Notes under the pieces: generated by a model | What the model was told of the DNA's origin: nothing | Database searches by the model: none | The model's input: only the letters and a program-made list of their open reading frames with translations | Source of the DNA: the human T2T-CHM13v2.0 reference genome, Homo sapiens | Strand: one strand, 5' to 3' | DNA: 64,000 nucleotides | Assembly: GCF_009914755.1 (NCBI RefSeq) | Contig: NC_060946.1 | Made by a program: the position numbers and the translations under genes | Part shown: piece after piece, positions 1 through 55,560 of the stretch | Numbering within the stretch: the first letter of the stretch is position 1 | Layout of the letters: each line of letters begins with the position of its first letter

Positions 1-700
1 ATATTCATGTCTTTCATTAGTGTAAGAACATTATTCCACTGTCTTTGAACTTACATTGTTGCAGATGAGTAATCCGGTATCAGCTTTCTTTTCTTTTATT
101 TTCTTTGTAAGTAGACTGTAATCTTTCTTTCTCTGAAAACATTTAGGATTTTCTCTTTAGAGCTCAGAATTGTCACCAGATTTTGTCTTTGTATTGATTT
201 TATCATTCATCTTTCTAGGACTTGGGGACTCTTCTCTACCAACACTTCCTTCTCTTGTTGATCTCACTCAGCCTCATGACTTTAAACATAATCTATGTGT
301 TAACTACTCCCAAATTTACCTAGACTCAATTGCTTCTTCAACATCTTCCCCTGGATGTCTAACACGCATTTCTAGTTTAACATGTCACCCCTTTGATCAG
401 ACAAATTAGGTATTTCTTTAGTTCAGAGACATTTTCTTCTATTATATCTTTAAAAGTATCATTTCTCTTCCAGTTACTCCTCTCTCTCCTTCCAAAGTTC
501 CAATTATTTGCACATAGCTCTGTTGGGTCTGTTCCTTCATGCCCCCTATCTTTTTGCTCATGATTTCCTTTTCTTTGCATTTCTGCTAAGTGCCCTGAGA
601 TAACCCAGCTCTGGCTTCCTTCTGGGAAAATTCAGTGGTCTTTCTCCTTCTCCTTGGTCTCCCTGAATAACTTTATACTCCTTTTCTTTCAACTGTCTCA
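1..700 (-). mobile_element. Old L1 (L1ME-like) fragment, interrupted at 229-387
   Basis: T-rich L1M antisense-type sequence; boundaries approximate. Confidence 0.6.
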
Positions 701-34612: not shown

Positions 34613-37444
34613 TAGGGAGGCAGGGCGAGCCCCACTCCTTTCCTCTGCCCCAGGAGAGGGGCAGACGGGGTTGGGGCGGAGTGGAGAAACTCGATGTCCT
34701 TGGGCGGGGGCGCTGGCATAGCTGAGAGGGGAAGATGCCCTGCAGAGGAAACTCACAGTGGCTGAGGGAGCCCCTGGCCGCCTTTGCTTTCCTAACTTAG
34801 GTCGTGAGGTTCCTACCGGTCCTTTTGACATCTGGAAAATGTCCCCATTCACTACTAACGGAGGAAGGGCTAGAAGAGAAGGGTGGGGAAAGGGTTCCCA
34901 AAACTTGGAATGCTAACTAAAGTGCTGGGAAATTGAATAGTTAAAAAAAAAAAAAAAAGTTGCCCGCCATGTGCACGGAAAGTTGCAGGAGAAACTTGGA
35001 GTACTCCGAGTCTGCATCATCTCCTGCGCCTATGAAATTCATTCTTTTCACTGAGACCCAACCCAGCTGCAGGCTTCCCAGGCAAGCGCTAACCGAGCTT
35101 CTGGGACTGCCAAGTTTGGGTGGATTTAAGGGGGAAAATGAGGAGAAAGCTGTGGCATTGACCCACGCCCTGGAGGCACTGTGTTTGAGAGTGTTGATAG
35201 CCAGCAGAAGGTGCGAGGGGTCACTCACCACATAGCTGTGAAAATTCACAGGAAGGCTATTTTTTTCCCCCTTGAATGTGTGTGGGGAGGGGGAGAATGG
35301 GTAGTGGAAAACAGATTTGTCACCAAAAGAACAAACCTGCCAAGGGTCACATCACGGTGACAGTTCCAGACTGGACTTAGTGTCTTGAGTAGAGAGACCC
35401 TGTAAAGAGACCTCCTACTCCTTAGTGTGTATGGAGGGCCCCGAGAGCATCCTGGGAGGCTTGTCTGGGAGTGTTTGGGACACTTGTGTTTGGATGGCTA
35501 AAGGTGGAGTGGCATCTGGGAAACATCTCTCTCCTCCTTTCCAGCCCATAAAGCGTGCAAGTCCAGTGGCTCTGCTGGGAGAGTGTGTGTGTGTGCACTG
35601 GGCTGGGCTGGGCGGTGGGGTGGGACAGCCTTGCCGCCCTCTGCCTGTGTCGATTCAGAGGTGAAGAATGGAGCGTGTGTGTTTTAAGTACAGTCATAAA
35701 GGAGAAGGAAATTTTCCACTGAGTCTTGGGTGAGGGACTCTACCAGCGTGTTGTGGTGAGGAGGGGGAGGAGGTAGGAGCTTGGCAGGGGAGGCAGTGAG
35801 GGCCGGGAGGGGCACTGCTGGTGGGCTGGGCTGAGCCTAGAGGTCAGAGTGGGGGTGTGGTGACCAGAATGTCAGTGCAGTTGGCAGCTGAGGGTGTTTG
35901 TGTGACCTGAGGTCACCCTTGTAAGAGGCTCCCTGGGGCCTGCATGGTACATCCTCCCCTCTCCTGGGGGAACCCAGCTGGCCCAGGATTTGTGGATTGC
36001 TTAGAAAGATCCTTTTGGGCAGCCTGAAGACTGGGGAGGGTTTTCCTCCCTCCTCCACCTCCACCCACATTCCACTTACCCTTTCCCTCCTCATCCCAGT
36101 TGGTAACATTCCCACCTGATTAGTGTGGGGAGTTGCTGCTGCAGCTGAGTTCTGGTTTTGCCCAGCAGGATCACACACGTGCGGCCAGGAGGCTGGCAGG
36201 TGGAATCAGGGTGTGCAGGGGTGCAGCCCAAGTCCTTTTCTGCTGGAAAATGGGCTGGGTGACTTCACTTGCGTTTTTTTGGTATGTAGTGGGAGTAGGT
36301 CCCCATTCTTCCCCCTTGCCCTTTGCTTTGGGGTTTCTACCCTAAAAATTGACCACGGAAAAGTGAAAACAAGCATGAGTAGATCCTGCTTCCAATGGGG
36401 GCCTTCCCGTCTGCTTACTGCTTAGGTTTCCTGCGGTGGGTCTGAGCAATGCAGAAAGTTTCTTACAATTTCTCTGGATTGAAACAAGAAATAGCTCCCT
36501 CGCTCCTCTTCATAAATTTCTCAGAGAAAATCTAAGTTACCAGGAAGTAGCCAAAGACCAGGAGATTGTGGAATCAAAAAGAAAAAAAGAAACAAAAAAT
36601 CTTCGATGCTCTGGCACGGATCCCAAATTGTTCTGCCTGGGTTTGGTGAGCTGCACTAGTGGCAGGGATGAGCTAATGCTTTTAAAATGGGAGGTGTGGG
36701 TGTGAGCTGCTTGCCTGCCGACCTCCCTCGCCTTGCACAGCACCCTGCTGGCGTCCAGTACTTGGCTCCCAAGTTTCATTGCTCAGAGCCTTTCTGGTTT
36801 CCAGTCTGGGTTGAAACTGTCTATTCTCGCCCTCAAACAAATATGAAGGAGCTCCCCATTCCTTGGGACCCACACAACCCCACCAGTCAACTTTGTAGCC
36901 CCCTAAAGGTGTTCACATCAGCCCATCAACTTCCTGTTTTAAAACCATCATGGTGGTTTTCTCTTCATGGCTTGGTGCCATGTTGGCCTAGCAAAAGGCA
37001 CAGGAGGCCTGGCCTGGTCCTCTCCGGGGGGCTGCCCGATGGCCTTTCCTCCTGTCTCTGCTCATCCACAGGTGTCTCTTTTTGTCTTTTTTCCCCAAAG
37101 TCCTAGGGCCTGGCATGGCATTCTGGGGGAGGAGGAGTTAAAAGGTGTTTCTATGGCAACTCCAGGCCCTGCACCCTATGGAAGTGTTTAGGAGAAGAAT
37201 AAACTACATGCCGGCTTATAAGACACACTGTGGGGGAAAGAAAGGGACTTGGCAGCAGGCAGGATGTCTGTGGTCCCCCTCCCTGGCCAGTCATTGCCCC
37301 TGAAACTCCTGACAAAACCTTGACTCTAGAAGAGGAATGGGAGGGGGCTGGAGATGAAGAAGGCGGCCTCGGCCCGGGCAAATCTGCCCTGGCAGCTCTG
37401 TCCAGCTCAGGAAGGGGTGGGCTGTGCCAAGGGCTTTCTGAAAA

Positions 37445-37479
37445 TGTGTGTGTGTGCGTGTGTGTGTGTGCGCGTGTGT
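37445..37479 (+). repeat. (TG/CG)n alternating purine-pyrimidine tract
   Basis: Read directly from the sequence. Confidence 0.9.
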
Positions 37480-38448
37480 GGCTTCTGCAAAGGTGGCTGG
37501 CAGGGCTGAGGGGGGTTGCAGCAGAGAAAGAGAATTTTGCTTCAGAATGCCAAGCCCTTCTCTCCTTCTCTCTTGCCGCCTTTGCATGGGAGGAATGGGG
37601 CTGTAGGATGAAGTGTGTTCGGGGCCTGCCTCTGAGCCTGTTGGGAATTTGAGCATGAGGCTCAGCTGGGGGGCCGGCTGCCAGCCCCAGAGGATGGCCC
37701 CTGGATAGCTCCAAATTGTTCTGACAGGGGCCAGTGCCAGCAGATTCTTTCAGTATCAGATCTGAGGTTGTCGTTTTAGCAAAGAAGCCATTTTCAAAGA
37801 AACCAGATCCATCCCCTCTCCCTCTTACACACAATTACACCTCAACACTGGGCTTTGCAACTTAAGGAAAATAGAAAGAATCAGACTTTGGAGAGGCGCC
37901 AGCACTTGGTAGGGCAAGTCTGGGGGACCCAGGCTGTGGATGTCTTGGAACCATGGAAGGAGGAGAGCTGCTATCCAGCTGGAGGAGGGAAGAGACATGT
38001 CTTAGGCCCCTCCTGGTTGCACGCACTTCCCAAATGCCATCTCTTTCACCCCCTCCCCCGACCCCCCACAGCAACCTTAAGAGTAGGTATTGCACCCATT
38101 TTTCAGATGGAAAACACTGAGGCTGAAGAGACTGTGCTTGTCCAAGGCCACCCAGTTGCTAAATGATAAAGCTAAAACGTATTATCAGTTATACCATGCT
38201 TCAAAAACCTTTCAACTTTCATTGACACATGACATTCTAAGGTGACCAGGAGATGGAATGGATGGTTAACATTTGAAGAATGCTTTTCTTCTACATCTGG
38301 GTTTTCTTTAAAAATATGAAGATAGCCAAAATGGCCAGAGGTTTTAATTAAACATCATCTTTAGGGAGGGAGAGCTTATTATTATTCTAGTGTATCATAG
38401 AGGAAAATTCTAATGTTCTTTGGCTATTAGATCTGGAAAAGACCCTTG

Positions 38449-38677
38449 AAACCATCAAGCCACAGTAATAAAAGGACTTGGTTTGTCTCACTGTGGCCCA
38501 AGGAGAAGTAAGGTTAATAGAGACAAGACATTTCAGGGCTTCAAGACTCTTCCCTTAAAGGTGGGATCAGTTAGGGCTCCCCAGTGGGAGGTACCCGGTC
38601 TGCCAGTGTGGTAGGAGGAAAGCCAGGGGGAGTCAGGAGACTGGGTCCCAGCTGGAGAAGGTGCCCCTCTGACAGTT
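38449..38677 (+). repeat. Long inverted repeat 1, left arm (donor)
   Basis: Reverse complement of 39487-39717; about 14 substitutions and 3 small indels. Confidence 0.96.
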
Positions 38678-39486
38678 CTGTGTCCCTTTCACAGTCCCTG
38701 GATAGATAAGGCTAGAAAAGTGGCCACAGAAGTAGCTTGGGTGGAGGGATTTTTGTTTGTTTTGCATGAACAGCAGGAACCATTCAGCTCCACTGCTGAA
38801 TGGCACATTCCAACAGGTTCATTAATTAAAAACAAAAACAACAACACGATTCTCCATCGCACTTGGCTTTTACCATTCCAGCCAGTATGGACAAGGAGGC
38901 CCCTTCTTCTACCTTTTGTCATAGTCTACTCCTGGGTGGCCTTGAGAGGCAGGGTGGAGTGGTGGAAAGGCAATGGGGAGGGCAGATCTGAGCTCCACTC
39001 CTTCCTCTGGGGCTTGTTGGCTGTGTGTGCCTAGGCACATATGGGCTACCTTTGAGCTTTAGTTTTCTTATTTATACAAGGGGAATAACAATTTGTACCA
39101 TCTTGGCCTGTTTTATCTATATTTTAAAAGCTACAAGTATATGAATACATTCTATGTCCATGTATGTATCTCTCTGTATATCTATGATATATCCATTTCT
39201 ATTTATCATTTATCATCTATCTATCTATCTCTCTATCTAAAATCGGAGAAGAGTAAAATCCTTTCTGATTACTTTTTCTAACTCTAGTCCCTTCTCCAAA
39301 TCCTTTTCTTCCTATACATTTACATACATAGGTATCCATAGCAAATTTATAGTAGTTTTTCCCTTAGAAACATGAATAGTAGAACATTAAACATCATGGA
39401 ATACCACATAATACCACATATAGTATTCTGCTTGTTTCCCATTCAACAATGCGTACTAGAGATCTTTCTACTTAATATATATATAA

Positions 39487-39717
39487 AACTGTCAGAGGAG
39501 CACCTTCTCCAGCTGGGACCCAGTCTCCTGACTGCCCCCCTGGCTTTCCTCCCACCACATTGGCAGACTGGGTAGCTCCCCCTGGGGACCCCTAACTCAT
39601 CCCCACCTTTAAGGGAAGAGTCTTGGAACCTTGAAATGTCTTGTCTCTATTAACTTTACTTCTCCCTGGCCACAGTGAGACAAACCAAGTCCTTTTATTA
39701 CTGTGGATTGATGGTTT
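39487..39717 (-). repeat. Long inverted repeat 1, right arm (inserted copy)
   Basis: Reverse complement of 38449-38677; flanked on both sides by (AT)n. Confidence 0.96.
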
Positions 39718-39722
39718 GGAGG

Positions 39723-39875
39723 ATATATATATATAAATATATAATATATAAATATATAATTTATATATAATATATAAATATATAATATATAAATATATAT
39801 TATATATAATATATATTATATATAATATATATATATTATATTTACATATATATTATATATATAATATATATATTT
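39723..39875. repeat. Interrupted (TA)n tract, about 150 bp and nearly all A/T
   Basis: Read directly from the sequence. Confidence 0.95.
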
Positions 39876-41681
39876 CTTTTATGTATTTCATGAGGTTATA
39901 ATTTTAAACAGCTAATAAGTATAGAGTGATTACTATGTGCCAGGCATTATTCTAAGTCATTAACTTACATTAACTCATTTAATTCTCTCAGTTTTATGAG
40001 GGAGGTGTGCTATTGTCATCTCCATTTTACAGCTGAGGAAACTGAGGCTTAGAAAAATGAGGTAACTCGTTTAAGGTTATACTGCTAGCAAGGAATACAG
40101 CCTGTATTTAAGCCCCTTCACCCTGGCTCTAAAATATATTTAACAACTATACTATAGGTCACATTATACCATATCATATTATATATACTACTACATACTC
40201 TTATATTATTATAATTATATAATATGCATTTTCAATTTTAATAGTTCCTGCCAATTTGGCCTCCACAGTGGCTGTGTTAACACAGTTCTTTTCATATATG
40301 CAACATGAGGGGATGGAGGAATGTTAGAGCCCTGTGCTTAAGAGACTCCCATGCTTCTCTCAAATAGAAAAACAATTTATAATTTTTATTGACTTACTGA
40401 GTGTTTTTTTTCCTTCTTTTTGTCTCTTTGAAAGGGAGCAAAATTAGGGCCACGAAGATCAAGTTAATGGGAGTATTTTCATAGGGAGAGGAAGGCTGCA
40501 ATGCCAGGAAAGCTGTGACCCTTGACTTGTTGCATGCTGGAGTAATTCGGTTGAAGATAGCTTTATGTATTTATTTTGCTTTCAGAATAAGCAGTGGACC
40601 ATTTATTACACCAAGTTGTTTGACTTTGAGGACTTACATGGACTCAGGTTCAAAGGTATATGTGGCTGTGTTTTGAACACACATACACAGGGTTTTGCTT
40701 TCTGACTCAAAGCTGTCCGCTGGCCAGGCTCATGGTGGCAGCAAGGGCACTCACTCATCTGTCTCCCTTCTTGTTGCCTATGGATGGCACTTGGGTGAGA
40801 GCAGTGGGATGGTCACAAGGAGGAGGATGGACTGCCGAGAGGGAGGCTGGGTGGACCCCAGCCAAGAAGGACGCTGGGGTCTCATTATTATGGGAGCTAG
40901 AAGGCCTGGTTTAGGAAAGAATTCCTGTTCTGATGAAAGCTCTTCAGTGGACTCTTAGGATAAAGTATCATCAAATGGCTTTTACAAGGGCCAGTGTGGA
41001 CCCTGCCTACCTCATCCTCATAGTCTCATCACTGGTCTGTCCTGCTCCAGCTGTTCATACTCTGTCTCTCTGGCTCTTGGCCCATGACACCCCCTCGGTT
41101 TTGAACAGTCCTCATTAACTTCTCATTCTCTAGGTCTCCTTTGGTTCCTTTCCCTGATCACTCCTTGGCATTGGTACAGACGAACAGTCATAAACCTTGC
41201 CCATATTTTAAGCATGCTGAAAAACACCATCTCTAGTAAAACCCAAATTCTCCAAAGCTGCATGGGAAACTCCCAGAGGGGATCATTCCTGCGCTGGGAG
41301 AAAGAACTTAGGGCTGCGTGCCACCCAGAGGGATAAACCTAACCCACTTTAGAGGGTAAGCACCCACTATGCTCTCTGCATTACTTGATAAGTCTAGTCC
41401 TGTCTTCTGGTGGACATGATACCCTAGCACCCTCCCAGAGAAGAAAGTGGAGATTTCTAAATGCCAACCCTGCAGGAGATCACAAACATAATACTGTAAT
41501 TTTCATAGTAAGTTTGGTGCCCTTACTATGTGCCAGGCACTGTACCAAGCTCCTTACTTGCCTATCAGTCATCCCAGCTGCCTGATGAGCTGTCTCAGGC
41601 TAGGGAAGCCAAATGGCTTGCCCAAGCTCACACCACTTGCAACCTATACTTGCTTAGCCTATCTCCAAAACCTGTGTTTCC

Positions 41682-41964
41682 AATCAGTCTCTCATATAGA
41701 CCAAGGGCTACAACTTTTTAGACTTGGGAAGATTCTACCCATTTTGCGACCTCTCCACATGAGTCTTTGGCTCCCCACTGTTGGGGTCCCCGTCAGTCTG
41801 CTTATCTTTGGTTTTCTTCCTCTCCAGACATGCCTTCCCTGCTGCCCCCAAATTTTATTACTGTATAGTCAGTTCTGGGATCCTAACATAACCAAGCCTT
41901 ACCTCCTAACCCAGTGCCCTTTCAACTCTCTCAGTGGTTCCCAGACTTTTCAACACTATGGAAT
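41682..41964 (+). repeat. Long inverted repeat 2, left arm (donor)
   Basis: Ungapped reverse complement of 43487-43769, 270/283 identical; also seen as near-identical ORF peptides at 41528+ and 43492-. Confidence 0.98.
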
Positions 41965-43354
41965 TTTTTAAAATTAATTTTTCCCTCCAATAAGTTCTGT
42001 GTTTGGAACAGTTATCCGACACAATTTCATGTGTTGAGTGTTGATTAACTTTCCATTAAAAAACAAATTAAAATATAACTAGAACTGCTGATACTAGCCA
42101 GTCATTATTCTGACACAATCAGCTAATATACTAATTAATTATAGCCGAAAGCAAGGACGGTTGGTGTTTTCATAAGCCTGGGAAGTTTTCTCATGGGTTC
42201 CTGGGTGATTGCATTGTCGGATTTGGGTTGGCTTACTGATATGCCTAAAATAGCTCCTGGCTTCTTTGGTATATCGCTGTCCTTTGCCCCTCCTGAGAAT
42301 CTTTAGTTTCATGCCAGCTTAGCATCTCTTCTCCCTGTGGGCAGGTCCCATGCATTTACTGCCATTGTCACTTCTCCCTGTTACCCACAGTGCTGCCACC
42401 ATGCCTGGGATAGACAGCAGGTAACTGATGTGTCCTAGTTGAGGTCCCTATCCTTTCAGAGGAGGTGACATGGGTTCAGATATTTTCCTATGTTCATGTC
42501 TGGCATCCAGGGGTACACAAAGTATTGATTCTAGCTAAAGGGACTTACTAAATACTGTTTGACAGGAGGCCCACAGGTGTCTATGTGGGCTGCAGTGGAA
42601 CTAAGAGGTCTTTTTGTTCAGCTGTTAAAAAATTAGTGTTTGTAGCTTCAGAGGGGCCCCAGAGAACCTTTCCTGACCCATTTAGAGGCCATCTGTGTGG
42701 CTAGGATGGCTTTGCTGTCACAGAAGGGACAGTCCACACTACCCAACACTCAAGTCTGATTTATGTTCATGTAAATCCGATCACCTAATGGTGGCATTCA
42801 CGGCTTGGAGACAAGAAACTATAAGTGTTTCCAAGCCTGCAGCCACCTGGCTTTTTGTGGGGGTGGGGAAGGGAAGGAAAGCTGTACGATCTGGCCTCAG
42901 AGAGCCCAAGGTAAAGTTCAGTTAGTGGAAAAACAGAGCCCTAGATGATTGGGCGGGGGGTGGGTACTGGGGAGTGGAGAGGGGAAGTCCTGAGCTGACC
43001 AAGCCTCCAAGAGCCATTCCGGAACTAGAGATCTTAAATACTACATGGTAATTATCCCCTCTGCCTCTGCCCATGAGGGTGTCAGGCACAGGGCCGCCTG
43101 GCTGCCTGCAGAGAAGAGCTGTTTCATTCAGAAACTTCAGAGCTCCTGCAATGCCTGGATTAGGATGTGGGGATGGTGAGTTTCGCAACCAGGGTCAGAT
43201 TTCATGAAGACTTGGTTTCGTGACTTGAGGTGTTTGACTAAGGTGTTTGCATCTCATGTATTTAGGAAGGGCTCCCTTTTGACTTAGACTTTATCATCAT
43301 GAATAAGCTCCCTGCCTTTTCGATTTGGAAACATGATAGCTCTAGTGAGCTCTG

Positions 43355-43800
43355 CTACTCCCAAGCTTGGGCAGGTTCTTTGCCTCAGTTTCCTCATCTC
43401 TAAAATGGGGGGAAATATATTATGTACCACGTGGTAACTTCATTGGCAATTAAGTGAAATACTTCATGGAATGTTTAGCACTAAATATTCCTTAGTGTTG
43501 AAAAGGCTGGGAACCACTGAGACAGTTGAAAGGGCACTGGGTTAGGAGGTAAGGCTTGGTTATGTTAGGATCCCAGAACTGACTATACGGTAATAAAATT
43601 TGGGGGCAGCAGGGAAGGCATGTCTGGAGAGGAAGAAAATCAAAGATAAGCAGACTGAGGGGGGCCCCAAAAGTGGGGAGCCAAAGACTCAGGTGGAGAG
43701 GTCGCAAAATGGGTAGAATCTTCCCAAGTCTAAAAAGTTGTAGCCCTTAGTTTATACAAGAGACTGATTCTTGGCACAGAATAGCTCAATAAGAATAAGC
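43355..43800 (+). mobile_element. MIR split by the right arm of inverted repeat 2 (one of dozens of MIRs in the window, not listed individually)
   Basis: Core TGCCTCAGTTTCCTCATCTCTAAAATGGGG before the insert; tail TTGGCACAGAATAGCTCAATAA after it. Confidence 0.8.
43487..43769 (-). repeat. Long inverted repeat 2, right arm (inserted copy, splits a MIR)
   Basis: Reverse complement of 41682-41964; MIR sequence resumes on both sides. Confidence 0.98.
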
Positions 43801-45789
43801 ATGAGCTTTTAGTAGTAGTGTTGTTATAGAGCAGAGCTGATATTCTCACTTCACTTTCGGTGAGGAAAATGGCGCTCTGTGGTGTGATGTGATGTTTTCC
43901 AGGGTCATATAGAGAGAGCTGAGTTTCAATTCAAAATCGTGGTTTGATCCCCCCGCCTCCAAATCTAATGTGTTCCATTTTGTCACAGTGCTTCCCACAG
44001 GGCAGAGAAAGAAACAACAAAGTTCCTACTCTATTTTCACAACTCTTCACATTTTAGAGTCTTAAGTCCATTTGATCTCATTTGATGACAACTTCGCAAC
44101 GAGGAAAGCAGGATGGTGATTGGGGGGTCGGTCATAGTTCGTAGTTAGTGGATGTCAGTATTGAGAATGGCGGGGTTCTGTGGCTTAGCCATATAGCCAA
44201 TACATGGAATGGGATTGGAACCCATGTCTTCTGAGGGCAAGCCCAACACTTGTCAAGGATCTGGTGCTGCCCTTCCCTCTTTAGACAGCTCCCATTGATA
44301 AGCAGAGGTAGAAGTCACTAGGGTAGCCAAAGAGAGGGCCCTAGAAATGGAATGGTGACAATGAACTTGGCTGAAGAGTCAGCAACCGCTCCCCTATCCA
44401 CTGCCAGGGCTAGGAGGTGCAGTGTGGCATGGAGGAGGAGCACTGGCTGGAGTTAGGAGGCCTAAGGTCTAGTCCTAGTTCATCATCTGACTCTGGAGTC
44501 CCCTTGGTGATACTGACCTCCCTGGGTTTGGTCTCTTATCTGTAAAACAGCAGGATATTGGCTCTATGTGGTGTGTATTTCACTGAATGCCTACTATGGT
44601 CAAGTTTTTCTGGCTCTAAGTTCCCTTGGAAAGGGCTCTCTACTTTAGCTGAATAACTCAGCACCTAAATCTGTCAACCACACCCTTCAGTAGGTAACTT
44701 TGTTAGAAATATGGTCTATTAAGGTAAGAGCCAGGATTTCTGTGGTTGCAAAAGTGGATGCGGGCTCTGAACAAAACCTCTAGTGAGCTGAGATACTTTA
44801 TCAGATGACATATTTGACCACCAAACTTCTGTTGGAGCAGGGCTGATTTGCCAAACAGACAGCAACCTTGCAGACTTAGTCGATGGCTAGAATTAAGACT
44901 CAAGGTCACTTCAGGGCCTGTCACTGATTGTGGGAGGGCTTGGTAAAAATTGAACCTCATTAACACCACTGAAGAAGCTGATAGACAAGAAATGGGATTA
45001 AGACTCAATACTCATCAAAATAAGGCTTTCCTTATCCACAGCCTACCTGAGCAGTGCCTCACTCTGGAAAATGTGGTTCATGGCTCGGCTCAAACATTTT
45101 CTGTTGCTGAGAGGACTTCTCTCATGGAAGTCTGGCTCAGATGAACACATGTGTGATCTGATGGAACCTTTGTTTAAGTGAATGAGGAGGGTATTTGGAA
45201 GACTTAGATCAAACGTGTGCCCCATTGGGCAGTCACTATCTGCTCCCCTGACAGGGAGAAACCCCAGTGACAGGATAGAAAGCTCCAAAGATCCTGAGGA
45301 AGTTTGGAAGGTCAAACTTCACCACTGCAAGGACTGAGAGATCCAAGAATCTCAGAATCCAGGTTGGTCTCCAGGGTGCAGTTCTGAACAAATGAGTGCA
45401 GTGGATAAAAAGCTTATACTTAAGGTGGGAAGGTGGGTGTGGGTTCCAGTTCCTTCTTTGGCTGATTCTCTTTTGGCCTGGATTTCCTCACTTGTCATCC
45501 ATGCCATGTCACAAACCCAGTGCCTACAGGGACCAGGCACAGAAGCTGGATATTTGAGTATCAGACATATTGGAATATTACTCACTCCTACCAAATATGT
45601 TTATGGTTCCCCATTCTCTTGGTTTCCATTTTGGAGAGCTAAACAGGTACTAAAAATGATTTCTTTATTATAAGACAAGCAATAAAACAGTGGGCAAGTG
45701 TGATGATAAACAGCATCTGAGCTTTGGCTTTGGAGTTGGGGAGACAATAGAGAGTGGCAGTAACTGTGGTGAACCGTACAGTCCAGGTC

Positions 45790-46533: not shown

Positions 46534-46592
<59 letters not shown>

Positions 46593-46731
46593 AGAAAGAA
46601 AAGAAAGAAAGAAAGAAAGAAAACAAAGAAAGGAAAGAAAGAAAAAAAAAGAAAGAAAGAAGGAAAGAAAGAAAGAGGGAGGGAGGGAGAGAGGGAGAGA
46701 GGGAAGGAAGGAAGGAGAGAGAGAGAGAGAC

Positions 46732-46769
<38 letters not shown>

Positions 46770-46852
46770 GAAGAAAGGAAGAAAGAAAGAAAGGAAGAAA
46801 GGAAGAAAGAAAGAAAGAGAAAGAAAGAGAGAAAGAAAGAAAGAAAGAAAGA
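46533..46852 (+). repeat. Compound (GT)n(GA)n(GAAA/GGAA)n microsatellite
   Basis: Read directly; about 290 bp of almost pure purine. Confidence 0.96.
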
Positions 46853-47309
46853 GATTGGTTTGAAACATTGGGAGCTGAGCTTAATGAGAAAAGGCCATTC
46901 CTAACTGCTAAGCTACCGTATTAAACAGTGGCAAGTACCTTGGAAAATAAAACAGAAACCACTGCCCATCTTTTTCTAACGGAGAAAGACAAGAGATGGC
47001 TTGACCAGAGTGGAGATTTAGAACTTCAGGTGCTGATAAATATGGTAACATCATGGGGTGCTTTGGCAGCTGGATAGATTTTATTTATTCAGGGCTCCTT
47101 TAAGCCAGAGGAGATTCCTGGAGGCTGCTAAAATAGAATGCTCCACCTGGATAGTTAACATCTGGATTTTATTTTGTTTCAAAAAGTTAATTACAAATAG
47201 TTCGAATTCCTTCTGGTATCCCTCTGAGAAGAGTTTCTTACTGGGTGGCTCACAAGCGGGGAGACAGAAAGGGAAAAAAACTAGATTGATATTGCTCAGG
47301 AGAAACAGG

Positions 47310-49711: not shown

Positions 49712-52700
49712 TTATTTGGGAGAGCTGTTTATTGTATTCCCCTCTTGGAGAGACATGTGGCTATTAGCATAGTAAAAGCTCTGAGAAGTCCTGCTGCATG
49801 GTGACCTGTTTGGCTCTGTTTAATCCAGTGTTCTCTGAACATATCTAGCCAAGGAACTAATTTTCCCAAGAAGCACCTACAAATGCAGTTGGTGAGACAC
49901 TGCCCAGATGAGGATTCTGAAAACCCCTTTTGCCCACTTGCCTGCCATTGTGATTGCTGAGTAGGGAAGAAGAAATTAGGAAGTATCATCTGCATTACAC
50001 AGGGAAGCTGCTCTCCTAGGGTTGCCAAACAGAAATGGCTGTAGTGGTGCCAGTGGGTGCTTTGTAGGGACCAGAAGAAAAAGGAGGAAGGGAAGGCTGA
50101 CCTTCAAGGTCACACATTTGCCAGATTTAAAGTTCCTTCCTGTGGTCATGACTTGTTTTATAATCTTGCTTGGCTCAGTTCTGGGCACACATCAGATTTT
50201 TAAATCCTAGGATCTTGTTTATACCGTTAAGGACATGATTGAAGGACATTGTGGTGAGTGTGAAGGTGAGATGTTTCTGATTGAAGGTCCATGGGGCAGG
50301 CACCCTGCGAGCAGGTAATGAACAGTAGGGGACATACCGGTGCAACCCCACCCTGGTCCCCTGGTCGTCTGGGCCAGATCTCTCCCCTCTCTGTTCTATA
50401 CTTCTCTTACATCACCGTCCTACCTAATCATTTTACCGATAGGAGCACCTTTGGGATTCTGATTAAAGCTATGCATACAAATTTCAAGAGCTTCAGAAAT
50501 TCTCCTAAAAGCTATCTTGGATCATTAGAACACTTGCCCTAGAGTATCACTGAGTCAATAATGGTGTTGAAACTAAACAGCAACAAAATCCCCCCAAAAA
50601 GGTAACCTAACTTAGTCTGAAATTGTCTGAAAATTAATGGCACTGCCAGTTCAGTGGCTGCTCAGAGCGTTTTGGTGAAGAAATTGGCTGATGGATATTT
50701 TGCAGTAGTCTACAGGATTTGACGTGGGATGCCATCTTTATGGACATGGCTCTGCTGGGCAAAGCAAGGACGGGCACATCCAGCCTATGCGGTCCATCAG
50801 GGGCACTCACATTTAGAATGGGGGAGTCTTAGTTAGCCCAGGGGCTGGGGGCAGCATGGTAGTGTAGAAAAAGGGGCCAGTGCCTCCAGAAAATGGGACC
50901 CCAGGCCTGGCTCTGCTCCTTCTGCTGTGTGATTCTGGTTGAGTGGCCTTCCCTTTGAGTCCTCTGGATGAAGTTAAGGAGAAGTCTTGGGTTCTCAAGT
51001 AGTCACTATTCAGACTCTCGCTTTCAGAGTATTTAAAGGAGGAAAGGAAACAGAAGGATAGGGCTGGTGGACTTAAAAGGCCGTGTGTTTGCCGCCACCC
51101 CATTTGCTCCCAGGGCTGGGTGTTTGTCTCCCCTCCGGCGCTGGGCCTCCTGCTTGGCCTCCAGCTCTTGCACCATTAACTGCAGTCAGAAAAGCTGATG
51201 TCACTGTGGCCGGCCTAGGGGGAAAGTCTCAGGATAAAACTGCTTCCACCTGGATCTGGAGAAGGGGAAGTGACTGGCAAGAGATTCGCAGGTAGGGCTC
51301 AGAGACCAGGAGGAATCCAGTCTGGGTAAGAATTCCCTGTCATGGGGCTCTGAAGCCACGGGCCAGGCAGGTAGTGGATTTCAAGCCAGCCAGCGGGGTC
51401 ACTTGGCCCCTGCAGCTACTCCTCGCCCCCTCCTGCATAATTTCCTATTTCCTGCCTCCTCCTCCTCTGACACAGTTATAAATAACCTCGAGGCTGGCCT
51501 CTGCGCTTAAGTATAGGTGAGCCAGAGGAAAGTGGAGGGGATCAAGGTGGAGCTGGATCTGCCACTTGGCCAGGGGGTCACAGGGTTTCAGATTGCTCAG
51601 GGGAATTTTGTTTTCTTGTTTTTTCCACTAGGGAGTGAGGTAGTGAAAGAGGAAATAAGCTGTGTTGGCATGGGGAGGCTTGGCCTTGCAGGCCGGTGCT
51701 GGGTTTCACCCGCAAGGAGCTGCCTCTCTGCTCACTGCAGATCCCCAGGACCAAAGGTCTGGAAAGAGGCTTAGTGAGAAGGCATCTCAGGACACAAAGA
51801 GGACACGATGCCTTGCTGGTGAGGTCCTGCGGTCTCCTTCTCGAGGCCCAGCCCGGCCCCATATTGGAGGCCAAACATGTAGAAGGGTGTATCTCATTTT
51901 TTACCTTTTTTTCTCAACCACCAGCCAACGATGGGTATGTGATTTCTAAGGATGTCCATTGACTATAAAGGTCCCATTAATACATATGCTATGGACAGAT
52001 TCTCTCCTTGAACACAGGTTTATGGAGCACCTACTATATTCCAGGTGCTGGGCAGAGTGCTAAGGTCACAAAAATGAATCAGCTGTGGCCTCTACAGCCT
52101 GTTCCCCTCTTGGCATAGATCTGCCCTTCCCCCTCCACAGTCTGGACAATCAAGGACCTGGAGTAAGCACACTCTAGGGGCCGCGTCTCCCAGCATATCT
52201 TTTGTTTTCGAAAGTTCAAAAAACAGAAGAGGAGGATTCTGAAACAGCAAACTTGCTGGGTCATCCATAGAGTATATTAACTGGCTATCTTGCTATCTGT
52301 CCATAACTTGCTACCTGTCCATAGTGTATATTAACTTCCTGGGAGCCCACTCACTGCCTGACTTCCTGTTCTGCGCATGGGCCCAAGGGAAGTTCTCGCA
52401 ACCATAGTTTTCTGTGATATCCATCCTACCACATGGCTTCCTGGGAAACCCATTAGCTTTTTTGTTTGTTTTAGAGCCCAAGGGAATCAGGGCCTTGAGG
52501 GGATTTTTTGGTGTGGGGGGTGGTGCAAGCTTCTAACACTGAGAGTGGGTGCTTTTCTGATTCCTATGAAGGTGGAGTGTAGGTGTCGTTCCTGGCTCAG
52601 CAGAGTCAGCCCTCTCATCCTATTCAGGCCGTCTCTGAGGCTGGCTCCTGTGCCCAAGCCCTTCCTCACTCCCTCAGGGCATGATCACAGGGCATTTCCT

Positions 52701-52721: not shown

Positions 52722-52916
52722 TGTGTGTGTGTGTGTGTGTGCGTGCGCGTGTGTGTGTGTGTGTGTGGTGTGTGTGGTGTGTGTTCTACTCCGTGTGTGT
52801 GTCATCCTCTGCTCATCCACCCATTCCACTGCGTGTGTGTGTGTGTGTGTGTGTGTGTGGTGTGTTCTACTCCGTGTGTGTGTCATCCTCCTCTGCTCAT
52901 CCACCCATTCCACTGC
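52722..52916 (+). repeat. (GT)n-anchored tandem duplication, period about 84 bp
   Basis: GTGTTCTACTCCGTGTGTGTGTCATCCTC...CCCATTCCACTGC occurs twice, each copy preceded by (GT)n. Confidence 0.93.
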
Positions 52917-53839
52917 AGCACCTAGCATCACCTAGGGGCCTGGAAAACCTGCACCTGAAAGCCGTAACTCCCCGGCACCTGGCTGGTTGACTTCTTCCCC
53001 CTTAACCCCATTTACTTTGAGGATGGAGGTAGTCTTTAGGGTCAGGCTGAGATTTGTCCTGACCCATGCTTAGTTGGCACATCTTGCTTCTGCAACATGC
53101 TTGCTTAGGGTTGGGCAGGGGCCCGGAGAAAACAAGTCGTGGCATCACCAGGACCTGATTACCCCCAGGCACCAAGGAGCACCTGGGACCAAGGGGAGGT
53201 TTGGGGCTTGGGATATGTTTTAGGGTGAAGGATCACAGAAGCTTACTCATACCTATTTGAAAGCCAAGTCAACAGATGTGGGTTCTTGGAAGGAGAAAAG
53301 GAGGTTAACTGCTTACTTATTAGATTAGAAGTGATGTATGAATGATAAAGAGCAGAGTTTGCCAGATATTGCTAATTAATTCTCTCACTGCTTATTTTAT
53401 GGATGATAAAGGGTAGGGAGAGACATGTTAATTGGCTTCAAGGTCTCTGAGCCAAGCATGACCAATCCGAGAAACCCAGGTGGCTTCATGCTCTTTCAAT
53501 ATGATCTCATCCCTGCACTAGAGAATTTATATTTTTGAGCATAAAGAATACCCACCGGTGCAATCTCCCAGGCTCTTCTGAAGGGTTTGGAGAGACAGTG
53601 GAGGATGTCAAAAGAGATGAACTTAGAGTCAAAAAAAGCAGAGATGGAATCCCGTCTCTGCCTTTTACCACTGGAGTTAGTTGACTAAAATGTAAACTCT
53701 GAGCCTTGGTTTTCCCAATTGCAAAATGGGAAAGACCCCATTTATAATGCAGGTGGGTGAGAGATGCCAGCAGTGACAGGGACTTTCAGTAAAGGCTGAG
53801 CTGAAGCTGAATTTGAAAAGCACATTCTTTACGTTCCAT

Positions 53840-53995
53840 TGAAGATCTGCACTTGCTCTTCTGCTAACCGCTAAGGTGTCATCAGTGCTGTGCTATTAAA
53901 ATCAGAAGTCAAAGAAGGTGGGTGTGGCCCTCATAGCCAGAGTTGATAGAAATGGATTTATTAATATAATGGATGGTCCATAGAAAGGTGAATGA
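53840..53995 (+). repeat. Dispersed direct duplication, copy 1 (donor)
   Basis: 153/156 identical to 55145-55300. Confidence 0.98.
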
Positions 53996-54338: not shown

Positions 54339-54764
<426 letters not shown>

Positions 54765-54974: not shown

Positions 54975-55560
54975 GCATCGAAAGCCTCAAACATGTGCAT
55001 ACACTTTAACTAGCAATCTTACTTCTAGAAATTTAGTCCTAAGAAATAACTAGGTAATGGAGTCCATTGCTACATTGTTTATCCCCAAATTAATCTAAAT
55101 GTCTATTGCAAATAGACTGCTTAGATTATGGTGCGTTCATACAGTGAAGATCTGCACTTCCTCTTCTGCTAACCGCTAAGGTGTCATCAGTGCTGTGCTA
55201 TTAAAATCAGAAGTCAAAGGAGGTGGGTGTGGCCCTCATAGCCAGAGTTGATAGAAATGGATTTATTAATATAATGGATGGTCCAAAGAAAGGTGAATGA
55301 AAGAGTCATAAAAGATGTTGAGGTAGTTCTCTATTGATGCCAGAATAGCCCTATGGTGCACTTTTGAGTAACAGAAGCCAATTTGTTAAAAACAACAACA
55401 ACAACAACAAAAAAAAACAGAGAGAGAGAGATGAATGTGCATCCAGATGCTTAGAGAAGAGTCTGAATGTCTGTATACTAAATATCAACACTAGTTACTC
55501 TGCGCTGTGGGATTTTGGATGATTTTAATTTGATCCAGTGTTTTCTGGAAAATAAAATTT
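54975..55560 (+). mobile_element. L1ME-like fragment, interrupted by the duplicated segment 55145-55300
   Basis: TAGCAATCTTACTTCTAGAAATTTAGTCCTAAG...ATTATGGT..CATACA. Confidence 0.65.
55145..55300 (+). repeat. Dispersed direct duplication, copy 2 (inside an L1ME-like fragment)
   Basis: 153/156 identical to 53840-53995. Confidence 0.98.

What the first reader, a model, noticed from the sequence alone, without database searches (positions are those of the whole stretch)
38449..39717. Second inverted repeat (~230 bp, ~92%, 809-bp spacer) whose new copy landed in an (AT)n tract
Seen: 38449-38677 is the reverse complement of 39487-39717. The right copy is bounded by ATATATATATA on the left and a 150-bp TA tract on the right, within an L1ME-like fragment. 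Established: (TA)n tracts form cruciforms and are break-prone. Inference: a break at the TA repeat was patched using the opposite strand about 1 kb away. With inverted repeat 2 this gives two consecutive giant hairpins within the first 10 kb of TIMP3 intron 1. The loop contains TEAD-like CATTCC motifs (about 38805 and 38874).
Basis: partly seen in the sequence, partly recalled or inferred. Interest (0 to 1): 0.72.

Follow-up and report, generated by a model that had tools for sequence, protein, structure and literature searches.

The report
Repair-made RNA hairpin in TIMP3 intron
A 230-letter piece of a TIMP3 intron has a reversed copy 800 letters away, likely pasted in during DNA repair millions of years ago, and published RNA-editing sites map onto both copies, so the raw transcript likely folds into a long double strand; such duplications are a known class and no function is shown.

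Summary
The inverted pair is real: 38449-38677 and 39487-39717, 214 of 232 columns identical, 809-bp spacer, two copies in the genome search. The right copy sits between an 11-nt (AT)n run and a 152-bp interrupted TA tract, beside an old L1ME-like fragment, so it is probably the inserted copy. Size, spacing and copy number fit the repair-mediated duplications of Pace et al. 2009 and the short inverted duplications of Sudmant et al. 2015. Divergence is 6% and looks neutral (roughly 8-50 My). That a TA cruciform caused the break is unproven: the tract's age is unknown, and two neighbouring duplications have no TA tract. The main addition: six published non-repeat A-to-G editing sites map onto the two arms on the TIMP3 strand, and a seventh onto the neighbouring hairpin, so the duplex probably forms in pre-mRNA. 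Three such duplications lie within 17 kb, which may be a local hot spot; the background rate is poorly bounded. The TEAD-like motifs are at chance level. Verdict: new member of a known class, likely an accidental ADAR substrate; a regulatory role is untested.

The parts
38449..38677 (+). Left arm, probable donor (template) copy; non-repetitive; carries published A-to-G sites at 38473, 38501, 38507, 38510
   Evidence: (no match to either repeat profile over the arm)
38678..39486 (+). 809-bp spacer (loop): unique sequence, a MIR-like fragment, an L1ME-like fragment, an (AT)n run
38958..39098 (+). MIR-like old repeat fragment in the loop (family name recalled)
   Evidence: 37.2 bits, profile trained outside 37000-45000
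39251..39469 (+). Old dispersed repeat fragment, L1ME-like (name recalled), ending 17 nt before the right arm
39475..39485 (.). 11-nt alternating AT run, probable left half of the target site
39487..39717 (-). Right arm, probable acceptor (inserted) copy, possibly to 39722; carries published A-to-G sites at 39636 and 39658 on the + strand
39723..39874 (.). 152-bp interrupted TA tract, longest pure run 13 nt; age relative to the insertion unknown
39866..39912 (+). Possible continuation of the L1ME-like fragment after the insertion, borderline
   Evidence: 19 of 2000 shuffles reach the score with lenient gaps, 627 of 2000 with stricter gaps; 94 of 500
39906..40133 (-). MIR-like element (it seeded the profile, so its score is not independent)
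41682..41968 (+). Neighbouring inverted duplication, left arm, probable donor
43483..43769 (-). Neighbouring inverted duplication, right arm; interrupts a MIR-like element; seventh published editing site near 43561-43567
53837..53995 (+). Third local duplication (direct), probable donor
55142..55300 (+). Third local duplication, acceptor copy; interrupts an L1ME-like fragment

Best explanation
The two arms are a 92%-identical inverted pair that likely arose when a germline DNA break at an AT-rich spot was patched by copying about 230 bases from 0.8 kb upstream in reverse, and in the TIMP3 pre-mRNA the arms are predicted to pair into a long duplex that is likely edited by ADAR, since six published A-to-G sites map onto them. 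Steps: (1) pair, size, spacing, two copies: shown. (2) Right copy is the insertion: inferred from AT runs on both sides and from the two neighbouring duplications, whose right copies interrupt old repeats. (3) Templated repair (SDSA/MMBIR type): inferred from class membership, junction microhomology not resolved. (4) Age about 8-50 My, neutral decay: inferred from 14 substitutions. (5) Duplex and editing: predicted fold plus one paper's REDIportal-based calls. (6) The editing is most likely a by-product with no selected role: inferred.
For: Geometry matches Pace et al. 2009 (824 duplications within 5 kb, mean 162 bp, maximum 619 bp, mean distance 1.2 kb) and Sudmant et al. 2015 (54% of sequenced inversion sites were inverted duplications, nearly all <1 kb within 5 kb). 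Two copies. No poly(A/T) run of 5 or more at either end. Substitutions: 9 transitions, 5 transversions, not clustered (p 0.11-0.69), G-U compatible 5 on + and 4 on -. Neighbours: removing the right copy restores a MIR-like match (49.8 against 39.2 bits; 1 of 300 shuffles, 6 of 300 random joins) and an L1ME-like match (14.4 bits joined, best of 9 joins, against -1.0 and -3.4 apart). Arm-arm duplex -426 kcal/mol, helices up to 37 bp. All 7 TIMP3 sites of PMC9021465 are A>G, + strand, non-repeat; a single 2-nt shift from the exon-1 anchor puts six on A in the two arms (1 of 25 shifts tried; 16 of 24358 starts do so by chance); the four arms are 2.2% of the intron; 5 of 6 sit where the arms agree.
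Against: No orthologue or empty site could be examined. Resumption of the host repeat after the insertion is parameter-dependent. No clean microhomology at either junction. The locus is not among the 8 proximal chr22 rows of Pace Table S1 (its hg18 position is recalled). The editing evidence is one bioinformatic paper without matched DNA; one site (38501) coincides with an arm difference and could be mis-mapping; the seventh site does not fall on A at the same shift; neighbour-base preferences are in the ADAR direction but not significant (P 0.13 and 0.16); no such site was found in a second list of constitutive sites.
Confidence: 0.8

Rival explanations
1. Same duplication, but specifically caused by a pre-existing long TA tract that extruded a cruciform and was cut.
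For: The insertion is flanked by AT runs on both sides; this is the only long TA tract in 264 kb; long interrupted TA repeats form cruciforms and break in FANCM/SMARCAL1-deficient cells (PMC12018271 passages).
Against: Tract age unknown; host-repeat relatives already have AT-alternating letters here; longest pure run 13 nt; no matching coordinates in that paper's peak file 7; the two neighbouring duplications lack TA tracts.
Confidence: 0.3
2. Scar of a small inversion made by staggered breaks: the spacer was flipped and the arm duplicated as a by-product.
For: Would give the same arm-spacer-arm layout (general knowledge of inversion breakpoints, recalled). Not excluded without an outgroup.
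Against: It needs the spacer-to-right-arm junction to be ancestral, which leaves AT runs on both sides of the right arm as coincidence (2.5e-4); weak resumption of the host repeat; no entry at these coordinates in a 612-inversion catalogue.
Confidence: 0.06
3. The hairpin has been co-opted: pairing or editing in intron 1 changes TIMP3 splicing, intronic polyadenylation or nuclear retention.
For: The sites are reported as differentially edited in established rheumatoid arthritis, where TIMP3 is lower (logFC -0.66) and exons 1-2 are under-used. An AATAAA on the TIMP3 strand lies inside each of the two stems.
Against: Correlation only. No excess of pair-preserving changes and no strand bias. AATAAA is expected in 29-34% of arms this long. 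No Rfam match at E<=1 in 38000-44500.
Confidence: 0.12
4. The arms are terminal repeats or copies of a transposable element.
For: TA-rich target sites are typical of some DNA transposons (recalled).
Against: Two copies only; 92% identity is far above that of the old repeats nearby; TA flanks surround one arm, not the whole unit; the loop holds old MIR-like and L1ME-like pieces.
Confidence: 0.02

Closest known systems
Repair-mediated duplications (Pace, Sen, Batzer, Feschotte 2009, PMC2671141)
   Same: Single-copy donor within 5 kb, 50-619 bp, no poly(A) tail, landing in or beside an old repeat, neutral divergence in the range of their hominid to catarrhine examples.
   Different: Not in their chr22 list; host-repeat interruption only borderline; they saw no clustering whereas three lie within 17 kb here; the words 'inverted' and 'editing' do not occur in their main text.
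Short inverted duplications of the 1000 Genomes SV map (Sudmant et al. 2015, PMC4617611)
   Same: Stretch <1 kb inserted in reverse within 5 kb of the other copy.
   Different: Those are present-day polymorphisms; this pair is 6% diverged and probably fixed (not tested).
MMBIR templated insertions (PMC8421209)
   Same: Inverted copy of a nearby template, found in the germline.
   Different: Their search covers templates within 100 bp and most junctions show microhomology; here the template is 0.8 kb away and microhomology is unresolved.
Inverted-Alu duplexes edited by ADAR
   Same: Long, imperfect intronic duplex of about 230-300 bp with clustered A-to-G sites.
   Different: The arms are single-copy sequence; the nearest masked repeats listed are about 7 kb away; sites are annotated non-repeat.

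Membership tests
Repair-mediated duplication (Pace 2009) | Inserted segment of 50 to about 620 bp | tested here: met
   231-236 bp
Repair-mediated duplication (Pace 2009) | Exactly one other copy in the genome | tested here: met
   2 places, 2 of 2 candidates; search is blind to old diverged copies
Repair-mediated duplication (Pace 2009) | Donor within 5 kb and more than 50 bp away | tested here: met
   809 bp
Repair-mediated duplication (Pace 2009) | Acceptor interrupts a repeat whose halves are colinear | tested here: inconclusive
   left half 15.4 bits; right half 19/2000, 627/2000 or 94/500 by method
Repair-mediated duplication (Pace 2009) | No poly(A/T) tail of retrotransposition | tested here: met
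   junction views, longest A run 4 nt
Repair-mediated duplication (Pace 2009) | Microhomology, filler or deletion at the junctions | tested here: inconclusive
   3 of 6 matching letters before the inner junction, a 2-nt mismatch then 3 matches at the outer one; needs the empty site
Repair-mediated duplication (Pace 2009) | Empty orthologous site in an outgroup | not testable with these tools
   no other primate genome is held
Inverted duplication SV (Sudmant 2015) | Inverted, <1 kb, within 5 kb | tested here: met
Inverted duplication SV (Sudmant 2015) | Polymorphic in humans | not testable with these tools
   no population data; 6% divergence argues for fixation
Non-Alu ADAR dsRNA substrate | Long intramolecular duplex on the transcribed strand | tested here: met
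   predicted only:
Non-Alu ADAR dsRNA substrate | Clustered A-to-G sites on both arms, on the gene's strand | tested here: met
   published sites mapped to the window: 4 left, 2 right
Non-Alu ADAR dsRNA substrate | Sites not explained by differences between the copies | tested here: met
   5 of 6 opposite U where the arms agree; 1 of 6 at an arm difference
Non-Alu ADAR dsRNA substrate | Loss of the signal without ADAR; absent from matched DNA | not testable with these tools
   no reads available
Cruciform-forming, break-prone TA repeat | Long TA tract with cruciform or break signal in cells | tested here: inconclusive
   152 bp but interrupted; z -0.8 against shuffles; no coordinate match in one peak file
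Multi-copy transposable element | Many dispersed copies of the arm | tested here: not met
Catalogued inversion polymorphism between inverted repeats | Listed with both orientations in humans | tested here: not met
   no matching coordinates in the supplement of PMC13629690; one catalogue only

The most novel reading that the evidence does not exclude
TIMP3 intron 1 is a germline hot spot of repair-mediated copying (three events in 17 kb, each donor upstream and acceptor downstream), and two of its products are primate-born, Alu-free ADAR substrates that now tune TIMP3 output in inflamed tissue; more widely, inverted repair duplications would be a main source of the 'non-repetitive' A-to-I editing clusters in human introns.
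Probability: 0.1. Interest if true: 0.65.

Novelty: new member of a known kind. Interest (0 to 1): 0.32.

Why it matters
As DNA, this is one more member of a class with at least 824 human examples. Its value is the link between two literatures: a repair scar explains where a cluster of non-repeat editing sites in TIMP3 comes from (7 of the 14 non-repeat sites that one arthritis study called differential). Because the arms are single-copy, the duplex can be deleted or flipped cleanly, which Alu pairs do not allow, so it is a convenient test of whether intronic dsRNA affects a disease gene. The three-event cluster, if above background, would contradict the report that such duplications do not cluster.

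Tried and rejected
Multi-copy element: rejected. DNA search with the L1ME-like flank found only itself, so relatives were gathered by motif (27 copies used, L008 left out as a probable chance match, L013 as the locus itself). Resumption of that repeat after the TA tract: no gain in nhmmer on the joined site, 94 of 500 shuffles, borderline. Resumption of the loop's MIR-like fragment after the tract: at most +1.4 bits, rejected. Gene conversion or clustered mismatches between arms: not seen. Selection for pairing on one strand: not seen. Rfam: no match. TEAD motifs, AATAAA in the stems and a 12-mer shared by the two hairpins (103 of 3000 random pairs share one): all compatible with chance. Fragile-site explanation of the cluster: SYN3 was non-fragile in one fibroblast study. 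Inversion catalogue: no entry. Literature searches for this repeat found no description of it as an inverted repeat; most subscription papers are not held. The Thomas et al. 2004 'doublet' paper was not held and is known only through Pace's discussion. Earlier scan findings were not available.

Full report
Observation. Local alignment gives arms 38449-38677 and 39487-39717 in inverted orientation, 214 identities, 14 mismatches, 4 gap columns, 809 bp apart; the repeat finder recovers the same pair in four ungapped pieces and suggests a 5-nt outward extension. A DNA search of the own genome returns only these two places, with the caveat that it misses old, diverged repeats. The neighbouring pair 41682-41968/43483-43769 (273 of 287) also has two copies. 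The right arm is preceded by an 11-nt alternating AT run and followed by a 152-bp A/T tract whose longest pure alternating run is 13 nt.

Which copy is new. Runs of five or more AT units number 11 in 264 kb (window plus 100 kb on each side), four of them in this locus; the chance that one ends within 5 nt of a random base is 2.5e-4, and a second run starts 5 nt after the core arm, right at the extended boundary. The simplest reading is that the right copy split an AT run. To test the host repeat I collected genome copies by motif (9 exact matches and 0 for the reversed control; 77 listed and 0), used 27 unlinked copies (7 of the 8, and 20 of the further matches) and built a profile. It matches 39251-39469 (15.4 bits, E 5e-6) and stops 17 nt before the arm; the motif used for collection is part of that match, so the score is not fully independent. 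The name L1ME is recalled. Removing arm and tract does not raise the score. The 43-47 nt after the tract resemble the next part of the repeat in order but with four gaps: 94 of 500 shuffles reach the mean pairwise score; against the profile's majority letters 19 of 2000 do so with lenient gap costs and 627 of 2000 with stricter ones. I call this inconclusive. At this position the relatives have AT-alternating letters, so the microsatellite probably grew from the repeat's own sequence, before or after the insertion.

Neighbours as internal controls. With a MIR-like profile trained outside 37-45 kb, joining the flanks of the neighbouring right arm raises the score from 39.2 to 49.8 bits (best of four joins); 1 of 300 shuffles and 6 of 300 random genomic joins do as well. 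The best join implies about 7 nt shared between target and arm end. A third pair, direct, 53837-53995/55142-55300 (155 of 159, two copies), has a right copy whose flanks join into an L1ME-like match (14.4 bits, best of nine joins, range 7.1-14.4, against -1.0 and -3.4 apart; no shuffle control). So both neighbours are insertions with the donor upstream, and neither has a TA tract.

Decay and age. Nine transitions and five transversions; events not clustered (p 0.11-0.69); transitions that keep a G-U pair number 5 on the + strand and 4 on the - strand. Distance 6.1% (95% interval 3.4-10.3%), which gives 15 My (8-23) at Pace's rate of 2.2e-9 and 32 My (17-52) at an assumed 1e-9. The neighbour's 4.9% is not distinguishable (Fisher p 0.56); the third pair is at 2.5%.

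Known class. Pace et al. 2009 (PMC2671141; parts 1-5 of 8 of the text and the chr22 rows of Table S1 read) found 824 single-copy duplications with donor within 5 kb, mean 162 bp, maximum 619 bp, mean distance 1.2 kb, with repair-type junctions and neutral divergence, and no clustering. None of the 8 proximal chr22 rows lies at TIMP3 (hg18 position about 31.5 Mb recalled), so their screen missed all three events here and their density of 0.62 per Mb of repeat DNA is a floor. Sudmant et al. 2015 (PMC4617611, passages) report that 54% of sequenced inversion sites were inverted duplications, nearly all under 1 kb within 5 kb. MMBIR templated insertions occur as germline variants (PMC8421209, passages). 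PMC8755829 (part 1 of 5) concerns much shorter microinversions and was not used.

The TA trigger. But the tract folds no better than its shuffles, no coordinate of this locus in either build was found in that paper's peak file 7 (file 5 was not searched), and its length at the time of insertion is unknown.

RNA consequence. The + strand folds with arm pairing to arm; the duplex alone is -426 kcal/mol with helices of 37, 37 and 34 bp, as any such pair must give. Independent evidence: PMC9021465 (parts 1-2 of 6, passages and supplement rows read) called known REDIportal sites in synovial RNA-seq and lists seven TIMP3 intron-1 sites, all A>G, + strand, non-repeat, with both hg19 and hg38 positions. 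Anchoring on the end of exon 1, a shift of -2 places the first six on A at 38473, 38501, 38507, 38510 (left arm) and 39636, 39658 (right arm); it is the only one of 25 shifts that does, 16 of 24358 starts do so by chance, and poly(A) and TG runs upstream can absorb 2 nt. The seventh falls near 43561-43567, inside the neighbouring right arm, but not on A at the same shift; the TA tract lies between. The four arms are 2.2% of the 47-kb intron. Five of six sites lie where the arms agree, so they are not copy differences; 38501 is an A opposite C, which is both a favoured editing context (recalled) and a possible mis-mapping. No site has a 5' G and four have a 3' G, the ADAR direction, not significant. 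Against: no matched DNA in that study, and no match in a list of constitutive sites from other tissues (PMC3637798, supplements only). The paper links the editing to lower TIMP3 in established arthritis by correlation and, in the parts read, does not mention an inverted repeat.

The cluster. In 264 kb a strict filter (>=100 bp, >=85%, spacer under 5 kb, low multi-copy cover) leaves these three pairs, all within 17 kb (probability 0.012 if uniform, and the window was pre-selected). A looser scan lists ten pairs, five of them in the flanks (55-250 bp, 82-97%), some of which overlap repeats or tandem arrays and some of which may be further duplications. The flanks bound the strict rate only below 15 per Mb; at 2 per Mb one such cluster is expected genome-wide, at 10 per Mb about 120. 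A hot spot is possible, not shown. SYN3 was non-fragile in one study (PMC7367836, passages).

Novelty. Ten literature searches were run; those aimed at this repeat (listings seen) showed no description of it, and it is absent from one inversion catalogue (PMC13629690, passages and supplements). Subscription papers, REDIportal itself and preprint supplements were not visible. Verdict: a new member of a known duplication class that explains a known set of editing sites; function untested; interest 0.32.

Noticed in passing
window 53837-53995 and 55142-55300: Direct local duplication, 159 bp, 97.5%, two copies in the genome search; the right copy interrupts an L1ME-like fragment. Third such event in 17 kb.
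   Followed up: yes
window 41682-41968 and 43483-43769: Neighbouring inverted duplication; right copy interrupts a MIR-like element, with about 7 nt shared at the outer junction; one published editing site falls in it.
   Followed up: yes
window 52629-52695 and 54696-54762: 67-bp direct pair, 82%, 2 kb apart, no other copy in 264 kb; possibly a fourth, older local duplication in the same cluster.
   Followed up: partly
window 38462-38473 and 41854 region (- strand): The two hairpins share one 12-mer that contains AATAAA; each stem sequesters one AATAAA on the TIMP3 strand (38467, 43592). 103 of 3000 random pairs share a 12-mer.
   Followed up: partly
window 52747-52916: Tandem duplication of about 86 bp (93%) with TG runs, overlapping the start of the RefSeq enhancer 52806-53307.
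   Followed up: no
window 229-387 and 2265-2420: 159-bp direct pair at 80%; looks like two fragments of an old L2-type repeat (name recalled).
   Followed up: partly
L026, window-equivalent 75012-75073 and 75268-75326: Small inverted pair, 62-77 bp, about 87%, 194-bp spacer, no other copy in 264 kb.
   Followed up: no
L016 (window-equivalent -86775 to -85442) and L030 (120332-121069): Local direct pairs in the flanks (61 bp at 97% beside 271 bp at 84%; 246 bp at 85%) that partly overlap dispersed repeats; possible further repair duplications that weaken the cluster claim.
   Followed up: partly
window 46534-46858: Compound GT/GA/GAAA microsatellite of about 325 bp, strongly purine-biased.
   Followed up: no
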